In this document: positions 41,806 through 51,858 of the stretch, one piece after another
Layout of the letters: the number at the start of each line of letters is the position of its first letter
How positions within the stretch are numbered: position 1 is the stretch's first letter
DNA from: Monosiga brevicollis MX1
Taxonomy: Eukaryota
Assembly: GCF_000002865.3 (NCBI RefSeq)
Contig: NW_001865085.1
Location: 6,256-70,255 of the forward strand
DNA length: 64,000 nt
Direction of reading: 5' to 3'
Made by a program: the position numbers and the translations under genes
The notes under the pieces: model-generated
Databases searched by the model: none
Seen by the model: only the letters and a program-made list of their open reading frames with translations
What the model was told of the DNA's origin: nothing

Positions 41806-44226
41806 CAACTCATCAGATCAGACGAGGATGGCTGCGCTACCTGAATGATAAACTTGCGATCCTCCTCGGCAGCCTTGTGAGTGCTCTCGGTGTCCGCCTT
41901 TTGCTCCGAGCGAACGGGCTGATCGATCTTGACGCGCAACTTTTTGTAATTGTACTTGAAGTTGAGACTGTATCGACCATCCTGCAATGTCAGTCCCACC
42001 AAGCACAAGTATGAGCTAGGCTCTCCTCAACAGAAAGAAAAATTAATCTCGCTCTCATTTGTCAAAAGCACAACACCACACATGAGCAAAGATCACGCAC
42101 CTCCAAAAGCAGGATTTTGGCCTTGGTGAGCAAATCAAGCTGGGGCTGAATGATATCCTGCATGCAACCAAATGTTGCGGCAGGAACCATGTCAAGAAAA
42201 AATGAGTCAAGAGCCGTGCGCCAAGCAAACATGCAAAAAGGGCCTTGATATGGAGCGGTGCGGGGTATTGTGTGGGGTAGAGAAATCAGGGGATCGCACC
42301 ATCTGCAGCTCCGTCTGATTCATAAAGTTTTCCATCGTGAAACTGTCGCCTTCGTTGAAAGCCAGCAGCAGGGAGATCTGGACGGTGTTGGCTTCCAGAA
42401 CACGCTCCTTTTTGGTGTAGAGCATCAAAATCTCGCCTTTGCACAAGTGGTACACCCAGTCCAGTTTGCGGCCGGTGTGGGCTTGCTGCATTGCAGCCGT
42501 GGGTAAAAATCGGTCAGACCCAAATTATGAGAAATAAGAACCTGGTCCAGGTTCGAGTGGAGGCCGAGGAAACGGCGGCACACAGATTGAAATCAGGAAG
42601 CACAGCATCTAGACTGACCGCGTAAAAGAGCTCATAGCGTTTGATACAATTGTCCAGGATGGTGGGAATGACCATCTTGAGCTTGGAAGCAAAAGGCCAG
42701 GTGGTGGTAGTCAAAACACGCACGTTGAAATCCAGCGGCTTTTCTTCACCGTGGATTTTAACTAACAGCAGATGCAAAGGCAAAGGGATACACCACATGT
42801 CGATGAGCAGGTGAGAAAGCCCAAGTGCAGATGTGGTGCCCAAGGACGCACCCATAATGTGTCCACTTTGATCCAGATGCTCCTTGAACTTGGCGTTTGT
42901 TTGTTTGTTTGTGGCCATGTCCTGGAACATGCGCTGCAGTTTGTTGGTGTATTCACCACCACAAGCGTCCTGCGACCACCGATCACGTCCAACGTGATTT
43001 GAGCAGGCGCATTCGCCCTCTGTTCAACACGGCGAGTGGGTTGCGCGCGGAGATACCTTGAGCTTGGAAAGCATGCTGGCCTCGGCGTCGTCTGATGCCG
43101 ACTTGTCCTGGATGAGACGGTTGGCCAACATCTTCTTGTAAAACTGCTCAAAAACGTCCTTGTCATCAAGGTACTGTTGGTACGGAATCAAAGAGAACAC
43201 CAACCCATCATGAGTCGAGTCGCGTTCGCAGCCTCGGCGTGGCTGATTGATGCCCCAAATGCACTAGTGGCGACCCGATCTTGTCCGCTTACGTTAAAAA
43301 TGACCATGAGCTCGGACAAGAGGTTTTCAAGCACATTTTCGGGATGCTTGGAAGAGTTTTTCAACAGGCTGTCGCAGTATTTGGCGAGCAACTCTGGGGA
43401 GCGAGCCAGCTTGGTGGCCTGGGTGACGCTGTTTGAATTGACAAAAGTACGGCAGCCCTTGTCACGGCTCTCGATGAAGCGGGGATTGTCGTTAAAGGCG
43501 TTGCGCACAAGCGCGTTGAACTGCTCGTACACCTGCAACAGAGCTTCAACGTATTTCTTACTGTCCTCGCCCGACTATTATCAGCAAGCAACCAGACACA
43601 AGTGAGAAATATGCATCGCAGCCCACACTATCATGTCCGCCTGGCGAACATACCATGGAGATTTTGCCCAGGGCATCAATGGCCTCTCGGCCTTTGGCAA
43701 TAATGTGAGCCTCGAGCTTTTCCAGCAAGACGTTGACGCCGTCCGGCAAGCGGCATAGTAGCACATACAAATGATGCAAATCTATCACTCGGATCAGTGC
43801 ATGAGCACAACTGGTCAACCCGGCTAAAATGGGCAACGAGAAGGCGAAAAAAGCAAGTGGCACATGCAGAAGGATGCGGTCGGATATCGTTGCTCGACGA
43901 CTGACCTTCATTGCGCTCCTGTTGCAGATAAGTATCAATCTCGCCGTTGAACAGAGGGATTTGATGCCGGATGAGAGCATCGTTGCACTATTTCCACAGA
44001 GCAATGTGAGAACCTACACCTAGGGCAGTTGCGGCGCAAGCGATGAGGGGGGGTCGACAACGCACAGCTTCAGCCAGGGGCTCATTGGTGGAGGCATGAA
44101 GATACTGTTGGACACGCTGCTCTTCCTGTTGGACTCGCTTGGTAACAAGCTTGAGGTAGTCGGAAATACTGTTCTCAGCCAAGAATTGCTCTGACTCCTG
44201 CTTGTAATACTTGAGAGTGGCCTATC

Positions 44227-44282
<56 letters not shown>

Positions 44283-45736
44283 AATCAACGTGGTCAGGGC
44301 CGCGCCACACGCAAATTGAACAAACGTTGGCTTTGACGCTGTGCATGTTGTGCGTTGCATGCTAGAATTACGCACATCAAGGAACGGCTGCTGGAATGAG
44401 TTGGCGTAGACCTCGAGGCGCTGCTGCTCGTGTTGACGGGTATCGACGCTGGAGGTGCGGCTGGCAGCGTTGCTGGTGGGGCGCAGGGCAACCATGGCCT
44501 CAGCTTGAAGGGAACCTACCAGATGCCATGATGTCAATCAGGATACAGCCGCGTTGCCATGGCACAAAACTGTCGACAACCCTCGGTGGCAGCAGCACCA
44601 GTGACGTACACAAGCAATCGACGGCTGAGCGGAGCAGATTGGTGCTCACAGCTTCGCCGTTACGATCGCGCTCAACCATGTCAAGCATCGCCCGGATGAG
44701 CTGAAGCAAAACCAGAAGTTTGGGTGAGACATCCAAGGCCAAAGGAGGCGAGTACGGGCAAAGAAGCGTCGTGGGTGGAGAAAAATGCTAACCTTTGGCT
44801 CGCACGCCTTGAAAAGATGTTCACGCCACTTGAGCAAAGCCAACTACACGACACGCAGCAGAAGCAAGCGTCAGGTGTGGTGAGCATCACCACTGTGGGC
44901 AGGGATGGAAACCCAGCGGGAGGCAGAGGTGGACGTACGCGATCGAGCTCAAACATCTTGTTCTTTTTGTGATCTGGGTTCTCCAGGGCTCGGGCAACGC
45001 AGTGACGGTTGATATACATGAAGATGTTGTTCAAGACGCGACGCGAGAAAAGGAAATCTTCCCAGAATTGCCGGTGCTTCTCAAGCAGCTCAACTCCCTC
45101 GTACGCCTCCAACTCCTAAATTGATGGCAGCACAGGAGTGATTTGATCAACGAGGAGGGAAAGGCGGCATGAAGAGGCGACACGATGCCTAGGCTATGCG
45201 CAGGGCTATACCTTGCGCAAGCTAATGCAACGTTGTTCCAGGTAGTCGGCCACTTTGCGGTACATGTCATGACCCACGATGTGGCTTGGATCACCTGGCA
45301 GATCAAGAGTAACGGGGTGAGGAAACACAAAAATGTGGAAACGCGCTTCGTGGCCATGGAGTTACAATGGTTTTTCTATGAAGAAACGACCACAGGGCGT
45401 CTACGCACGATGGCTGTTGGATGAAGGTGGGCGGTTGGTAGTGCAGAAGTTGTAAACAGCCCTGCAGTGTGGCAACCAGCGTACGCCGACGGCAAAAAAA
45501 AAAAAAGCGGGGGGTGAGTGGTGTAGTGACGGAAAGGATGACAGTAGACCAGATAGGATGCTATCTGTAAATGCATTTTTGCAGCAGGGTTGAGGTGCCG
45601 CCGCAGAGAGGACGTACGCATATGCCTCCATGTAGCGTTTATGGTTTAGATTGACCGTGTTGTTGGATGATTGAAAGATGACGTTGACCACTGGCAACAA
45701 CCCTTCCCAGCACTCTTCAATGGTCTGGGACGGCAT
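41338..45736 (-). CDS. CUL1: Cullin-1, highly fragmented (many short exons)
   Basis: [87 protein letters not shown] (neddylation motif) and the terminal YEYL|A*. Confidence 0.94.
44228..44281. repeat. Poly(A) run (poly-T on the coding strand) in a cullin intron
   Basis: About 54 consecutive A just upstream of a minus-strand acceptor. Confidence 0.9.
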
Positions 45737-47047: not shown

Positions 47048-48671
47048 ATGGCTGACAAGTAAGTTGGCGCCCCATCTGCTTCCGGCGCTCTGCAAAACTT
47101 GTTACAACGTGGTTGAGGCCCGTGGCTCCCTTGGGGCATGGAACGGCAGCGGCAGGCGAGGGCGGAGGAGGCAGTTTGGCTGGAGAACTTTTGGTGTCGA
47201 GTGAGGAGATGACTTGTCGTTTGCTTCTCGACACGAAGCTCTCTGTGCCAGGGCTGGTCTTGTCTGTCCTCGCTTGCCGCGAGTTGTTTCCATCGGCTGG
47301 CCATGCGCGTGGCGCCGTTCCTGTGTCGAGGCATGAACGTATCCTTGTTTTCTTTTCTTCCGAAAGGAAGCGGGGGCACCCCTGTCTCGACGCGGGTGGT
47401 TGGTCCCGTGAGAGGGTTTCCCCGCTGGCGCGCATCCGCCAGGGTTCGCGACTCAGTTGGGGTTGAATCTCGTGCAATGTCTTGATGCTTGCTTGATCAA
47501 GCCCTGATCACGTGGATTGCATTCCTGGTTGTGGAATGGCCCTCTCGCGGGATGAATCGCTGCAACCATGCTGGGCTTCAGGCTCTGCTTTCACGCACAC
47601 ACTCCCGTCCTTTGAGCCCGGGCTTTTCAAAGGCTCGGGACTTGAAGGTGCTTCCGGGATGTGAAAGCAACCTGTTGCCATAGCTGGTGAACGCGGGTGC
47701 GAGATGCTCTTCTCCAAGAGCATTCTCGTGACCAAGTTGTCGGATGAGTCCTCTGTTGGCTCACTCCGATCTCACGAGTACAACTTTCCCCCGTTGTCCG
47801 CCCCCTCTTTTTTTCCACCTGTTTTTGTCTCGTTTAGGACGAAGGGCATTCCTGAGGCTATCCTCAAGCGCCGCAAGCGCGATGAGCGCCTGGCCGCCGA
47901 GACCGCCAAGGCTCGCGCTGAGCAGAAGGCCGTCAACAAGGGCAAGCGCAAGGACATCTTCAAGCGCGCTGAGCAGTACGTGAAGGAGTACCGCCGCCAG
48001 GAGGCCGATGAGACTCGTCTGCGCCGCCTCGCCAAGAAGTCGGGCTCTTTCTACGTGCCCGCTGAGCCCAAGCTGCTCCTCGTCATTCGCATCCGCGGGT
48101 TGGTTTTCGCGGTCTTCTTGACACTGCTCGGCTTTATTTATGCATCTCGAGACTTGATGCACTCGAGTCAAAACATGCTTCGCTCAATGTTGTTCCTAAT
48201 GTGTTTTCCCACAGTATCAACGGCGTTTCGCCCAAGGTCCGCAAGGTGCTGCAGCTTTTCCGCCTGCTCCAGATCAACAACGCCGTCTTTGTGCGCGTGA
48301 ACAAGGCCACCATCAACATGCTCCGCATCATCGAGCCCTACGTTGCTTACGGTTACCCCAACCTGAAGACCGTCAAGGAGCTCGTCTACAAGCGTGGCTT
48401 TGGCAAGGTTAACCGCAGCCGCATCGCTCTCAGCGACAACAAGATTGTCGAGGAGGCTCTCGGCAGCAAGGGCATCATCTGCGTTGAGGACCTCATCCAC
48501 GAGATCTACACCGTTGGCCCCAACTTCAAGGCCGCCAGCAACTTCCTCTGGCCCTTCAAGCTGAACAGCCCCCGTGGTGGTCTCGTCAAGAAGGGCAACC
48601 ACTTCACCGAGGGTGGTGACTTTGGCAACCGCGAGGATGAGATCAACCCCCTGGTCCGCCGCATGAACTAA
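47048..48671 (+). CDS. RPL7: 60S ribosomal protein L7 (uL30), 3 coding exons (47048-47058, 47839-48098, 48216-48671)
   Basis: ATG GCT GAC AA|gtaagt joins ttag|G ACG AAG to give [17 protein letters not shown]. Also [52 protein letters not shown] and NFLWPFKL. Confidence 0.96.
47149..47733 (+). ncRNA. Putative structured RNA element in RPL7 intron 1
   Basis: At least five successive stems, several of 13-18 bp with G-U pairs, plus a GAAA tetraloop hairpin (details in findings). Confidence 0.55.
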
Positions 48672-49333
48672 GTGGAACCAGAAAGAGCAATCGGGCGTGT
48701 TGCGCCCATTTGCCGGCTCTACCCGTCCAAATGTCTCTTTCTGCGTGCCATCCACTTGTAATTGACGTCTGGACGCTTCAAAAATCACAAAAGTTTCTCT
48801 CTTTCTCCTTTTGTCTCAAGCATTCAAGTCATTGCAAATCAGCGCACGAGTCCCTCCTCTTTGTGACAAGCAAAGGTGGAGATGTAGTGTTTGAACCATG
48901 CGTTGCGATATCATCACGCTGTAGCTGAGCACAGATCCTGCCGAACATTTGCAATGACATTGTTAATCTTGAAGGCATATTTGCGCATCAGCGTCGAATT
49001 GGTTTTTGCTGACTTCAAAGCGAGTCCGCTGATCAGGCTTGGAGGACACAACAGGATGGCAGGTATGTGTTGTCTCCCGTGTGTGAACACCATGCAGAAG
49101 ACAACGACCAATCCAGGCGCAGGGCACAACGTCATCGAGCGCGGCTGCGTCTGGACCCCACCATTCAGGTTTGTTCTTTCTTGTGAGAAGTCGTGCTTGT
49201 TGACTTCTCACAAGAAAAAATTTACAGTTAATTTGTTTCTGCGCAGAAGTGGATTGTGAATGTGCTCAGTGGCATTTTTTTGGCGTTCGCGCCTTGTTTG
49301 AAACAGTGAAAGGCTGTGCGCGTCTTGCCCGTG

Positions 49334-51584
49334 ATGACTATTCCTGCAAACATGGCGCAAGAAGAAAAGGACGTATGGATTGATCTCAATCTTTCCAAGG
49401 ATCATGCTCGAGAGCACCCACTCGAGAATGCGATTTGTGAGCTTGTTGCGAATGCCCTGGACGCCAGCGAAAAGAAGCCACAATTTCGAGCTGTAGCCGC
49501 GAACAAGATCGAGCTGGAGGACCAAGGGCCTGGTTTGTCCCTTGATGCCTGGGTCGTCGGTCGAAGCAGCAAAGCCATGGGCCATTTTGGTCTCGGCCTC
49601 AAGGATGCTATGGCAATTCTCATGCGCGAGAAGGTGCAGGTTCAGATTGAATCGAGCAAAGGCAACTACCACTTCAAAGAGAAAAGAGGCCAGACTTTAG
49701 TCGAGACCATCCATGTTCAGCAGACCCCCAGCTCGCGTGACATTGGGACCAAGATTACCCTGTCCTTGCAGAACAATGCTGCACAAGAACTTGTGACAGA
49801 GGTGCAGACCAAGTTCTTGCGACTGTCCTCAATCTACACCTTCCTGGGCGAGTACGACGGCGTGCAGGTCTTTTCGAAGTCAGATGGCAAGCCTGCTTCT
49901 CATACCTCACTGTTTGTCAAAGGCTTTGCCATGACAACGAGCAGTGCCTTTTTCTTCAGCTACAACATCCTTTCACCCACGCAAGAACAGAACGAATGCT
50001 GTAATCGTGACCACCATGTGACCTATTTCAAACCTTTTAGAGCTGCTATCATCGCTGCAGTGGAAAATCTTTGGCAGCCGAAATTGGCAGAGGCTTACAC
50101 CTCGAAATATCGCGACAACAAGGGACATTATGAACTTGCTTGGACCGAGTTCGAAGGACTGGGAATAACTGCACGGCATTCCTATGGCAAGCCTCAAGCA
50201 TCAACCAACTTGTTATACCGTGCTGCGCCGCCAGTCGCATCAGCCCCACTGCCCGCCGAAAGGTTTTTGGCACAACTTGCTAAGCTGGCGAAGCTTCCGC
50301 CTGCATCCACTTCCATCGCGCGCGCCTGCACCTCTGATCGTGCGCATCGCATCCTGGACGATAAGTCTGGACCAGTGACGCTTGTTGAAGTGAATCGTCT
50401 CATCAACCATTTCAGTCCCGAAGATGCCGTTCCACCAGACCACAGAAAAGTCGTTGATCGCCTGGTGCGGACGCTTCATGAGGTCGGTGTGCTATTTGCT
50501 GCAGGCACAAGCACGGTTTGAATGTACACTCATTAGCGATATTTTTCTTGGGCCAGGATCCTATGCTGAGCGTCGATGAGGTCTATCCCGGGGGCTCTTA
50601 TGCCAAAGGCACAAGCACGGGTGCACAATCCGATGTGGATTTGCTCGTTGTTTTGAACGACATCCCGACTGAGAACCATTCACGTTGGCTGTACATGGTG
50701 CTGACCGAATTGCGCCGCGTTGTGGAGCTGGGCCTGCAAGGTGAGCCATTGAATGTAGCCACACCTTGACTCGGGTGTGGGGCATTGATACGTGGTCACG
50801 CTGCAACTTAGGCAACTGTCAAGATGTGAAGGTGACGCGCTTTGCGGTCCAGCTGCGAGTGGACAACGTGAACGTTGACTTGCTTCCCGTCCCCGCAGCC
50901 CTATGGCGCTCGACCGACCAACGCATGAAAATCGTGAATAGCGCGGCCCTTGAAGACCGGCGTTGGCTTTCCGTGGCGTTTGCCAAAGAGCAGGTCTGTC
51001 TGACATAAGAATCCAACATCATCAGCGTGGAACAATGCATCGTTTGCCTTTTTGTAAGGAACTTCGCCTCATCAGATTGATTTCTTGTCTTTTGGTGATC
51101 AACTAGGTGAAGTACGTCAGAGAAAAAAAAGAAACTGCTGGCGTGACCGGCATCATCCGACTCATCAAGCGATGGCTGGCCACCCAAAAATGGCGTTCCA
51201 AGCCTCCCTCATTTTTGATCGAGCTCATGGTGTTGGAAGCAAAATCGCGCCTGCCCGGTAAGGCTAGCGCATTCTTGTACCGTGCCCTACTTGCACGCAC
51301 TTCGTCACGGGGAGTCCCTTGCCCTTGTTTCTGCTGCGAGGATAGAGGCGGATCACTTGGCGTTGCTCAATAAGTTTTGGGAACTCGTAAGGCACCACGA
51401 AACGCTTTGTATCATTCACGGTTCAGCGGTGCATGCTGAGATTGCACATGAGCGGCCCTTGGTGGTTGATCCAGCAAATCCGACCAATAACGTGGCAGGC
51501 AGCTTCCAATGGGACGAGTTTGTGGGCTTTGCCCGTGAGATACATGCCACTCGGCTGCGTAAGTTTGTCCGGGATCTGAGCTAA
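49334..51584 (+). CDS. GHKL (HATPase_c)-ATPase fused to an OAS/CD-NTase nucleotidyltransferase, 5 exons (49334-50482, 50557-50740, 50812-50993, 51107-51257, 51346-51584)
   Basis: N-terminal GHKL boxes ELVANALDA, EDQGPGL, GHFGLGLK and GTKI. C-terminal GGSYAKGT..SDVDLLV, NVDLLP, IIRLIKRW, PPSFLIELM and RPLVVDPANPTNNVAG. Four GT-AG introns with compatible phases (0,1,0,1). An alternative start is ATG 49352. Confidence 0.88.
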
Positions 51585-51858
51585 GAAAAAGCGCATCCCC
51601 AAATGTGTGCCACTCGCGAGTTCTTGACCATGTTTACAATTGATCTTGTCAAGTATCAGCTATGAGAAGATGAACTTGAGTCGTCAAGCCTGTCCAAAGA
51701 CGGGGCGGGTCGAGTCGCAACGATAATGTCAAGACGAGGAGGGTTCAAGTTTTGTTGTACTATTGTCGGGCGCTTCGCTTCCAGCGCCGAGTGAGACAAT
51801 ACACCTTAAGATACGCTTAACATTACAACCAACAAGAAAAAAAGTTCAAAAGACAGCC

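What the first reader, a model, noticed from the sequence alone, without database searches (positions are those of the whole stretch)
49334..51584. GHKL-ATPase::OAS/CD-NTase fusion gene, a candidate ATPase-gated nucleotide second-messenger synthase
Seen in sequence: a ~1.15-kb intronless first exon encodes a complete GHKL ATPase (ELVANALDA N-box, DQGPG G1, GHFGLGLK G2, GTKI G3). It splices in frame through four canonical GT-AG introns (phases 0,1,0,1) to a Pol-beta-type nucleotidyltransferase with GGSYAKGT, SDVD and a third Asp in NVDLLP, followed by the OAS C-lobe motifs IRLIKRW, PPSFLIEL and VVDPANPTNNV. Established: these motifs define the OAS/cGAS/CD-NTase superfamily, which makes 2'-5'A or cyclic nucleotide immune signals. 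Animal OAS proteins are activated by dsRNA and carry no GHKL domain, while GHKL ATPases act as sensors in several prokaryotic defence systems. Inference: the ATPase may be a sensor or conformational switch controlling signal synthesis, giving a one-gene immune sensor in a unicellular animal relative. I do not know this architecture from the literature, although OAS-like genes in choanoflagellates have been reported.
Basis: partly seen in the sequence, partly recalled or inferred. Interest (0 to 1): 0.92.

Follow-up and report, generated by a model that had tools for sequence, protein, structure and literature searches.

The report
ATPase-clamp fused OAS enzyme of choanoflagellates
This choanoflagellate gene is spliced into one message for a protein that joins an Hsp90/gyrase-type ATPase to an OAS-family enzyme (a relative of our antiviral RNA sensor), and the ATPase likely acts as a switch on a predicted nucleotide-signal-making activity.

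Summary
Five exons (phases 0,1,0,1) give a 634-aa protein identical to Monosiga brevicollis MONBRDRAFT_39312. The ATPase-to-NTase junction is spliced in 5 of 8 runs laid (three studies); one contig skips all four introns. Intron 1 lies inside the NTase fold, so the halves cannot be separate genes. The C-terminal half is OAS-family (Pfam OAS1_C above cut-off; best fold match OAS1, Z 26.4; catalytic triad kept). The N-terminal half is a GHL ATPase of the uncharacterised MPN635/phrog_6077 type, with all ATP motifs kept and a predicted head-to-head dimer (0.72 against 0.00). The fusion occurs in at least nine choanoflagellate species and, with a more diverged NTase, in other mostly unnamed organisms. 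The same ATPase module is also fused to NYN-like, poly(A)-polymerase-like and rRNA-methylase domains, and in prokaryotes to a HExxH peptidase motif. Likely mechanism: an ATP-cycled clamp gates oligoadenylate synthesis. Gating, product, trigger, receptor and immune role are inferred, not shown. The domain pair sits unremarked in one paper's supplementary table; I found no text describing it. New variant of a known kind.

The parts
49334..50482 (+). Exon 1 (residues 1-383): ATPase, transducer-like domain, linker and first NTase helices
49364..49783 (+). GHL-type ATPase domain (about residues 11-150): N-terminal DLNL strap, E36/N40 N-box, D63 G1, G86/G88/K90 G2, T139 G3; predicted homodimer surface
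49784..50095 (+). Second domain of the MPN635/phrog_6077-type module (about 151-254), likely the transducer; R225 of the NRDH motif (50006-50008) is the inferred switch residue
   Evidence: transducer role inferred
50096..50368 (+). Variable Ala/Ser/Pro/Arg-rich linker (about 255-345), mostly pLDDT under 50, one helix 308-319
50369..50482 (+). First helices of the OAS-family domain (346-383), encoded upstream of intron 1
   Evidence: alignment to OAS1 starts at model residue 340-347
50483..50556 (+). Intron 1, 74 nt, phase 0, GT-AG
   Evidence: skipped in X7, X5, X3, X6, X8
50557..50740 (+). Exon 2: G396-S397, K400, catalytic D409 (50632-50634) and D411 (50638-50640)
50741..50811 (+). Intron 2, 71 nt, phase 1
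   Evidence: skipped in X7, X5, X6; retained in the X3 contig
50812..50993 (+). Exon 3: third catalytic D467 (50877-50879), S498 and Q505 (OAS1 S186, Q193)
50994..51106 (+). Intron 3, 113 nt, phase 0
51107..51257 (+). Exon 4: OAS C-lobe, R523/K526, PPSFLIE
51258..51345 (+). Intron 4, 88 nt, phase 1
51346..51584 (+). Exon 5: DPANPTNNV motif and stop codon
51585..51655 (+). 3' untranslated region ending in a poly(A) tail
   Evidence: X6 loose end of 11 A at 51655

Best explanation
The gene makes one spliced mRNA for a 634-residue protein with a GHL-type ATPase module, a flexible linker and an OAS-family nucleotidyltransferase; the ATPase is predicted to pair head to head and likely works as an ATP-cycled clamp that switches on an inferred oligoadenylate-making activity, probably in defence. 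Steps: (1) shown: one transcript, both domains, both sets of catalytic residues kept; (2) predicted: two ATPase domains pair through the N-terminal DLNL strap and the ATP lid; (3) inferred from other GHL enzymes: ATP binding closes the clamp and hydrolysis by E36, with R225, reopens it; (4) inferred: a captured ligand, most likely RNA or an RNA-protein particle, shifts this cycle and so brings together or frees the two tethered OAS domains; (5) inferred: the OAS domain joins ATP into short oligoadenylates, perhaps with mixed 2'-5' and 3'-5' links; (6) receptor unidentified, unlikely to be RNase L or, across the group, STING.
For: One transcript. OAS identity: OAS1_C 35.4 bits against cut-off 19.9; VIA-align best rows OAS1 Z 26.4, rmsd 2.5, 279 aligned, then poly(A) polymerase 21.9, CdnC 21.4, ILF2/3 19.4, CCA enzyme 19.1 (same top in the 48,161-chain search). 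Porcine OAS1 active-site residues named in PMC13129866 (passages) map by the alignments to G396, S397, K400, S408, D409, D411, D467, S498, Q505, K526, E544, D597; S498 and Q505 are kept in 5 of 5 choanoflagellate fusions. ATPase: among 15 aligned fusions N40, G86, G88, K90 and T139 are kept in 15, E36 in 14 (one starts downstream of it), D63 in 11, R225 in 11; a profile of the module hits Topo VI-B (E 7e-7), Mlh1 and TRAP1. Dimer of residues 11-255 with ATP and Mg: score 0.72, best of 3 controls 0.00, runs agree in at least 91% of contacts, pLDDT at least 82; the mark was reached by 21 of 30 solved pairs and 0 of 23 single chains (eukaryotes 17 of 29 and 0 of 30; 1 of 7 without an older solved relative), so it may reflect likeness to solved GHL dimers. 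Conservation: full fusions in H. gracilis, S. infusionum, C. flexa, M. fluctuans and HATPase plus OAS1_C rows for A. spectabilis, S. urceolata, S. punica, S. dolichothecata in the supplement of PMC10732462: at least 9 species. The module is joined to different catalytic tails in different lineages, the pattern of ATPase-effector proteins such as Tiamat (bioRxiv 10.64898/2026.09.30.754977, passages). Sponge OAS is reported to be dsRNA-independent and the Monosiga domain to have few basic interface residues (PMC6307210, passages), which leaves room for another switch.
Against: No enzyme, binding or knock-out data. The model gives no fixed contact between the halves (pTM 0.59; linker pLDDT under 50), so coupling is not seen. 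Many OAS-family relatives lack the ATPase or carry other domains (MATH, ubiquitin-like, winged helix), including a 372-aa H. balthica protein close in the tree, so the synthase does not need it in general. R225 is replaced in 4 of 15 fusions and D63 by N in 4 of 15, among them C. flexa and M. fluctuans. OAS1 T187, T190 and Q229 are not kept (V499, A502, S540). RNase L with intact domains is reported only in jawed vertebrates (PMC10400998, passages) and STING with cGAS in 2 of 22 choanoflagellates (PMC8592570, passage): no receptor. PMC6307210 argues that ancient OAS genes are not immune genes. The window neighbours found are a ribosomal protein L7 gene and a cullin. Defence link of the prokaryotic module is modest and uncontrolled: 21 of 148 neighbours, in 14 of 44 loci, hit PADLOC.
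Confidence: 0.55

Rival explanations
1. The clamp grips an RNA or RNP and the NTase modifies it directly (adds or caps nucleotides at RNA or NAD-type ends) as an effector, with no diffusible signal.
For: Sister fusions of the same ATPase clade carry RNA-acting tails: poly(A)-polymerase-like (P0062, E 1e-10; P0003, E 0.002), BMT5-like rRNA methylase (P0053, P0110, E under 1e-35) and a NYN-like motif set (8 proteins). No receptor for a signal is known.
Against: The fold and residues match OAS1 better than any RNA-tailing enzyme; adenine-acceptor residues S498 and Q505 are kept; no extra RNA-binding domain follows the NTase.
Confidence: 0.2
2. The two domains are tethered but work largely independently: the synthase is constitutive or dsRNA-activated like animal OAS, and the ATPase only dimerises or localises it, in a stress or housekeeping role.
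For: Long flexible linker and no predicted interface; relatives without the ATPase exist; mRNA is found in several culture runs; housekeeping neighbours.
Against: The hydrolytic E36 is kept in 14 of 15 fusions, more than a passive dimer module would need; the fusion persists in at least 9 choanoflagellate species.
Confidence: 0.2
3. The fusion is a gene-model artefact joining two neighbouring genes, or one half is a dead remnant.
For: Read through, exon 1 reaches a stop at 50519-50521. In X3 and X6 the contigs run on from the upstream gene, so contigs can merge neighbours. A published analysis used a 250-aa form lacking the ATPase (PMC6307210 supplement).
Against: The exon 1/exon 2 junction itself is spliced in 5 runs of 3 studies; intron 1 interrupts the NTase fold; independent transcript-derived proteins of other species and intronless relatives (L001) carry both halves; 8 of 11 changed codons in a related strain are silent.
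Confidence: 0.01

Closest known systems
Animal OAS1-3/OASL (OASa) and sponge OAS
   Same: Pol-beta NTase plus OAS1_C fold, catalytic triad, most donor and acceptor residues.
   Different: Carries an N-terminal GHL ATPase module; T187, T190, Q229 equivalents differ; dsRNA activation and RNase L coupling are not shown.
Choanoflagellate OAS group ('OASc' of PMC10400998; OAS superfamily of PMC10732462)
   Same: This protein is in the PMC10732462 set (P008832) and is its only M. brevicollis OAS1_C entry; it probably falls in OASc (not tested; that paper's figure and supplement could not be seen).
   Different: Neither main text mentions HATPase; PMC6307210 used a truncated form.
Bacterial clade C CD-NTase CdnC (type III CBASS, HORMA/Trip13-regulated)
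   Same: Nearest bacterial solved relative by sequence (E 5e-7) and fold (Z 21.4); an ATPase takes part in its control (recalled).
   Different: There the ATPase is a separate AAA+ protein acting through HORMA (recalled); here a fused GHL module. NCBIfam CBASS cut-offs are not met (66 against 200 bits).
MPN635-type / phrog_6077 GHKL proteins of bacteria, archaea and phages (Pfam PF25856, function unknown)
   Same: Same two-domain module: PHROG E 3e-17, Atlas TM 0.84 over residues 10-289, profile match over 265 columns.
   Different: Prokaryotic members end in a HExxH motif (73 of 82 ORFs) and have NRER where the fusions have NRDH; they sit on the other side of a 100/99 branch.
Tiamat, sacsin, MORC and Hsp90-like defence ATPases
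   Same: GHL ATPase with a swappable C-terminal effector and predicted N-terminal pairing.
   Different: No DUF3684 or PD-(D/E)xK nuclease, far shorter; the effector is a nucleotidyltransferase.

Membership tests
OAS family | Pol-beta NTase core: GS motif, D-x-D and third Asp | tested here: met
   G396-S397, D409, D411, D467; NTP_transf_2 27.6 bits, cut-off 21
OAS family | OAS1_C C-terminal lobe | tested here: met
   35.4 bits, cut-off 19.9
OAS family | Fold closest to OAS among solved NTases | tested here: met
   OAS1 Z 26.4, rmsd 2.5, 279 aligned; next family Z 21.9 and 21.2
OAS family | Acceptor and donor pocket residues of 2'-specific OAS1 | tested here: inconclusive
   S186, Q193, K65, K212, E233, D300 equivalents kept; T187, T190, Q229 not
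OAS family | Synthesis of 2'-5' oligoadenylate | not testable with these tools
   needs an enzyme assay
Vertebrate OASa / RNase L pathway | dsRNA activation and a partner RNase L | not testable with these tools
   No genome held; PMC10400998 places the pathway in jawed vertebrates
Bacterial CBASS CD-NTase | NCBIfam cyclase cut-off | tested here: not met
   66.3 and 60.2 bits against 200
Housekeeping NTases (CCA enzyme, poly(A) polymerase, Nrap, ILF2/DZF) | Best profile and fold match to these families | tested here: not met
   CCA 23.7 bits against 281.3; Nrap_D5 13.1 against 27; all rank at least 4.5 Z below OAS1
GHL ATPases | N-box with catalytic Glu and Asn, G1 Asp, G2 and G3 motifs | tested here: met
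   E36, N40, D63, G86/G88/K90, T139; profile hits Topo VI-B, Mlh1, TRAP1; Pfam HATPase_c itself is under cut-off
GHL ATPases | S5-fold transducer donating a basic switch residue | tested here: inconclusive
   Ordered alpha/beta domain 151-254; R225 kept in 11 of 15 fusions and invariant in 10 prokaryote-type rows; PDB fold searches were filled by NTases; likeness to the Hsp90 switch Arg is recalled
GHL ATPases | N-terminal homodimer with ATP | tested here: inconclusive
   Predicted: 0.72 against best control 0.00; model support only, no run without ATP
GHL ATPases | ATP hydrolysis | not testable with these tools
   needs an assay
MPN635-type / phrog_6077 proteins | Shared N-terminal module | tested here: met
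MPN635-type / phrog_6077 proteins | C-terminal HExxH peptidase-like part of the prokaryotic form | tested here: not met
   No HExxH in P0001; replaced by the OAS domain
Tiamat / sacsin | DUF3684 core, PD-(D/E)xK nuclease or sacsin repeats | tested here: not met
   No such Pfam or PADLOC hit for P0001

The most novel reading that the evidence does not exclude
A GHL ATPase clamp borrowed from a prokaryotic and phage family became, in microbial eukaryotes, a reusable infection sensor that gates RNA- and nucleotide-acting effectors. In choanoflagellates it gates an OAS, giving a one-protein sensor-synthase activated by clamp closure rather than by dsRNA on the enzyme: a third way to switch on an OAS/cGAS-type enzyme, with an undiscovered receptor in the closest relatives of animals.
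Probability: 0.3. Interest if true: 0.92.

Novelty: new variant of a known kind. Interest (0 to 1): 0.74.

Why it matters
What switches on OAS enzymes outside animals, and what they did before RNase L existed, is open. This is the only M. brevicollis OAS1_C protein in the one survey table I could read, and an earlier comparison used it without its first 384 residues. If the fused ATPase gates the enzyme, it is a new mode of control for the OAS/cGAS superfamily and gives a first function to the MPN635/phrog_6077 ATPase family. M. brevicollis has gene knock-outs and an infection model (PMC8592570), and each active site can be disabled by a single change, so the question can be tested directly.

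Tried and rejected
No genome is held for the window, so paralogues and receptors could not be searched. Folding without an alignment failed (pLDDT 33.8). PDB fold searches returned only NTases, so the ATPase half has no solved-structure overlay; the viral library gave uncharacterised phage proteins and rIIA/HSP90-like proteins. No relative was found in viral contigs with either query; 4 phage records matched weakly. PADLOC has no model for the ATPase module (exon 1: 0 families). The NYN call for eight sister proteins rests on motifs; the Atlas score of 0.86 is a lead only and no PDB NYN/PIN protein was hit. The NTase tree did not settle whether the choanoflagellate and second-group fusions arose once or twice: quick method, the two groups fall apart, long branches. 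The organisms of the second group could not be named: three records (P0093, P0169, P0173) are from EukProt without a species; L001 looks AT-rich and gene-sparse, eukaryote-like by inspection only. No expression table for this gene was found in the two readable supplements of PMC8592570. Three look-ups in earlier findings showed nothing. Two papers on nucleotide conflict systems, asked for by recalled DOI, are not held. A separate-genes reading and a housekeeping-NTase reading were rejected for the reasons given under rivals and membership.

Full report
Observation. Five exons from 49334 to 51584 join through GT-AG introns of 74, 71, 113 and 88 nt (phases 0, 1, 0, 1) into 634 codons without an internal stop, with all ten quoted motifs. 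A protein search with exon 1 returned 3 hits, the first an identical 634-aa protein named Monosiga brevicollis MONBRDRAFT_39312. Sixteen public runs hold the stretch; I laid 8. One contig of X7 covers 49291-51648 and skips all four introns; one of X5 skips the first three. The decisive ATPase-to-NTase junction is also skipped in X3, X6 and X8, so in 5 of 8 runs from 3 coded studies; X1, X11 and X12 gave unspliced contigs. Caveats: these are assembled contigs, the X3 and X6 contigs run on from the upstream gene, and introns 2-4 also appear retained in some pieces. X8 is a related strain: 8 of 11 changed codons in the NTase exons are silent (one contig, depth about 4).

Anatomy. A model built on a 70-row alignment has mean pLDDT 84.7 and pTM 0.59, with two well-folded halves and a poorly ordered linker at about 253-345. 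The NTase domain begins at about residue 346, inside exon 1: its alignment to OAS1 starts at model residue 340-347. Intron 1 therefore cuts the NTase fold and the downstream exons cannot make a whole enzyme alone. Four unspliced relatives (P0002, P0007, P0008, P0009) lose similarity at the same point, which suggests the same intron in them (inference).

The C-terminal half is OAS-family. Pfam OAS1_C scores 35.4 bits (cut-off 19.9) and NTP_transf_2 27.6 (cut-off 21). By sequence the top PDB hits are OAS2, OAS1 and E. coli CdnC. By fold OAS1 leads (Z 26.4, rmsd 2.5, 279 aligned) ahead of poly(A) polymerase (21.9), CdnC (21.4), ILF2/3 (19.4) and the CCA enzyme (19.1); the wide search agrees. Porcine OAS1 residues named in PMC13129866 (passages read) map to G396, S397, K400, S408, D409, D411, D467, S498, Q505, K526, E544 and D597. 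T187, T190 and Q229 are not kept. PMC6307210 (passages) links changes at T187 and T190 in sponge OAS to mixed 2'-5'/3'-5' products, so strict 2'-5' specificity should not be assumed.

The N-terminal half is a GHL ATPase of a family without known function. Pfam HATPase_c is under its cut-off, but a profile of 17 module sequences hits Topo VI-B at 7e-7, then Mlh1, TRAP1 and ParE. The module matches phrog_6077 at 3e-17, and clusters carrying Pfam PF25856 MPN635_N by features (0.98) and by structure (TM 0.84 over residues 10-289). In 15 aligned fusions N40, G86, G88, K90 and T139 are invariant, E36 is in 14 (one sequence starts later), D63 in 11 and R225 in 11. Residues 11-255 with ATP and Mg were predicted as a symmetric dimer through residues 14-27, the lid (70-86) and 120-125: score 0.72, best of 3 controls 0.00, at least 91% of contacts shared between runs, pLDDT at least 82. 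The mark was met by 21 of 30 solved pairs and 0 of 23 single chains; for eukaryotes 17 of 29 and 0 of 30, but only 1 of 7 without an older solved relative, so the pass may come from likeness to known GHL dimers. No run without ATP was made.

Distribution. The search of 1.84 billion representatives gave 547 hits, of which I examined the best 150; with P0002, 63 of 151 proteins carry the module. Five are full OAS-type fusions: this one and proteins of Hartaetosiga gracilis, Salpingoeca infusionum, Choanoeca flexa and Mylnosiga fluctuans (the last two are diverged and miss the Pfam OAS1_C threshold used). The hmmscan table of PMC10732462 (supplement rows read) lists HATPase and OAS1_C together for six species, adding Acanthoeca spectabilis, S. 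urceolata, S. punica and S. dolichothecata: at least nine species. Ten more carry a shorter CD-NTase-like tail that hits CBASS cyclase models weakly (P0093 lacks the first catalytic motif); four further ones came and one intronless locus, L001. Their organisms are mostly unnamed. Eight carry a tail with NYN-like motifs (a lead only), two a poly(A)-polymerase-like palm and two a BMT5-like methylase. In a tree of 60 modules, all 35 of these fused or fusion-like forms lie on one side of a 100/99 branch against 25 prokaryote- and phage-type rows. For that tree I dropped 49 of 109 modules, among them near-duplicates, fragments and P0034 and P0116, which fell between the two sides in the 78-row quick tree, where the split had support 91. 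The tree is unrooted, so direction of transfer is not shown.

Prokaryotic form. A scan of GTDB confirmed 316 relatives among 600 pattern matches and kept 80 loci from many bacterial and archaeal phyla. Of 82 module ORFs, 73 have a HExxH motif downstream, and no neighbour recurs in more than 6 loci. I scanned 148 of 258 near neighbours (44 of 79 loci): 21, in 14 loci, hit PADLOC at 1e-8, with strong hits in 9 loci. There was no control, so this is a hint of a stand-alone defence gene and no more.

Mechanism. The best-supported reading is an ATP-cycled clamp that controls the tethered synthases. Shown: one transcript and both catalytic sets under conservation. Predicted: head-to-head pairing. 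Inferred from GHL enzymes as summarised in the Tiamat preprint (10.64898/2026.09.30.754977, passages): closure on ATP around a ligand and long-range control of a C-terminal effector. The RNA-acting tails of sister proteins point to RNA or RNP as the ligand (inference). Against it: no predicted contact between the halves, many OAS relatives without the ATPase, partial decay of ATPase residues in some fusions, housekeeping neighbours (ribosomal protein L7 and cullin among 15 ORF pieces scanned), and no receptor: RNase L is placed in jawed vertebrates by PMC10400998 (passages) and STING with cGAS in 2 of 22 choanoflagellates by PMC8592570 (passages). I give it 0.55, direct RNA modification 0.2, independent domains 0.2, artefact 0.01.

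Novelty. That M. brevicollis has an OAS-like gene is known. PMC6307210 modelled a 250-aa form that starts in exon 2 (supplement passage). PMC10400998 names a choanoflagellate-only group OASc and draws domain architectures in a figure that I could not see; its supplement was unreadable, so the fusion may be drawn there. PMC10732462 holds the HATPase rows in its table, where this is the only M. brevicollis OAS1_C entry, but has no 'HATPase' in its main text. Nine full-text searches for the combination or its parts listed no paper whose title or abstract start describes an ATPase-OAS fusion; most hits were seen as listings only, subscription journals are missing, bioRxiv supplements are closed, and two relevant papers were not held. 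Verdict: a real, conserved and apparently undiscussed architecture; a new variant of a known kind; interest 0.74.

Noticed in passing
L012-L091 (e.g. L042:6001-7389, L085:6001-7365), L002:5086-6549, L010:7938-9329: Prokaryotic MPN635/phrog_6077-type ATPases with a C-terminal HExxH motif (73 of 82), patchy across phyla, no fixed partner gene, some beside defence genes: a candidate one-gene ATPase-peptidase defence system.
   Followed up: partly
proteins P0031, P0039, P0044, P0046, P0055, P0074, P0166: Proteins of about 1100 aa with three tandem copies of the ATPase module, most ending in HExxH; P0014, P0021, P0084 and P0165 have two copies.
   Followed up: no
proteins P0016, P0019, P0024, P0029, P0043, P0058, P0088, P0114: Same ATPase module fused to a small domain with DxENAHN and AADT motifs, NYN/PIN-like by eye.
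   Followed up: partly
proteins P0003, P0062, P0053, P0110: Same module fused to a poly(A)-polymerase-like palm or to a BMT5-like rRNA methylase; the four group together in the module tree, 96/94.
   Followed up: partly
proteins P0006, P0025, P0040, P0102; P0037, P0068, P0091 and kin; P0095, P0101; P0148: OAS-family proteins with N-terminal MATH domains, N-terminal ubiquitin-like domains or Egalitarian-type winged helices, or a C-terminal GTPase: wide domain shuffling around OAS.
   Followed up: no
L007:847-2451 and L007:2538-4941: AT-rich contig (GC 0.25) with the ATPase gene next to a fused metallophosphoesterase-SMC gene; L002, L004 and L008 also have SbcCD/SMC-like neighbours.
   Followed up: no
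L010:1259-3520: A SMODS/AGS-C CD-NTase and Sa_NUDIX pair lies about 4.4 kb upstream of the prokaryotic ATPase gene; seen once.
   Followed up: no
window 49169-49306: Possible 138-nt GT-AG intron in the 5' leader, seen in one low-depth contig of X7.
   Followed up: no
window 47665-48671 (+) and about 43988-45115 (-): Neighbouring genes: ribosomal protein L7 (L30 family) and a cullin.
   Followed up: yes
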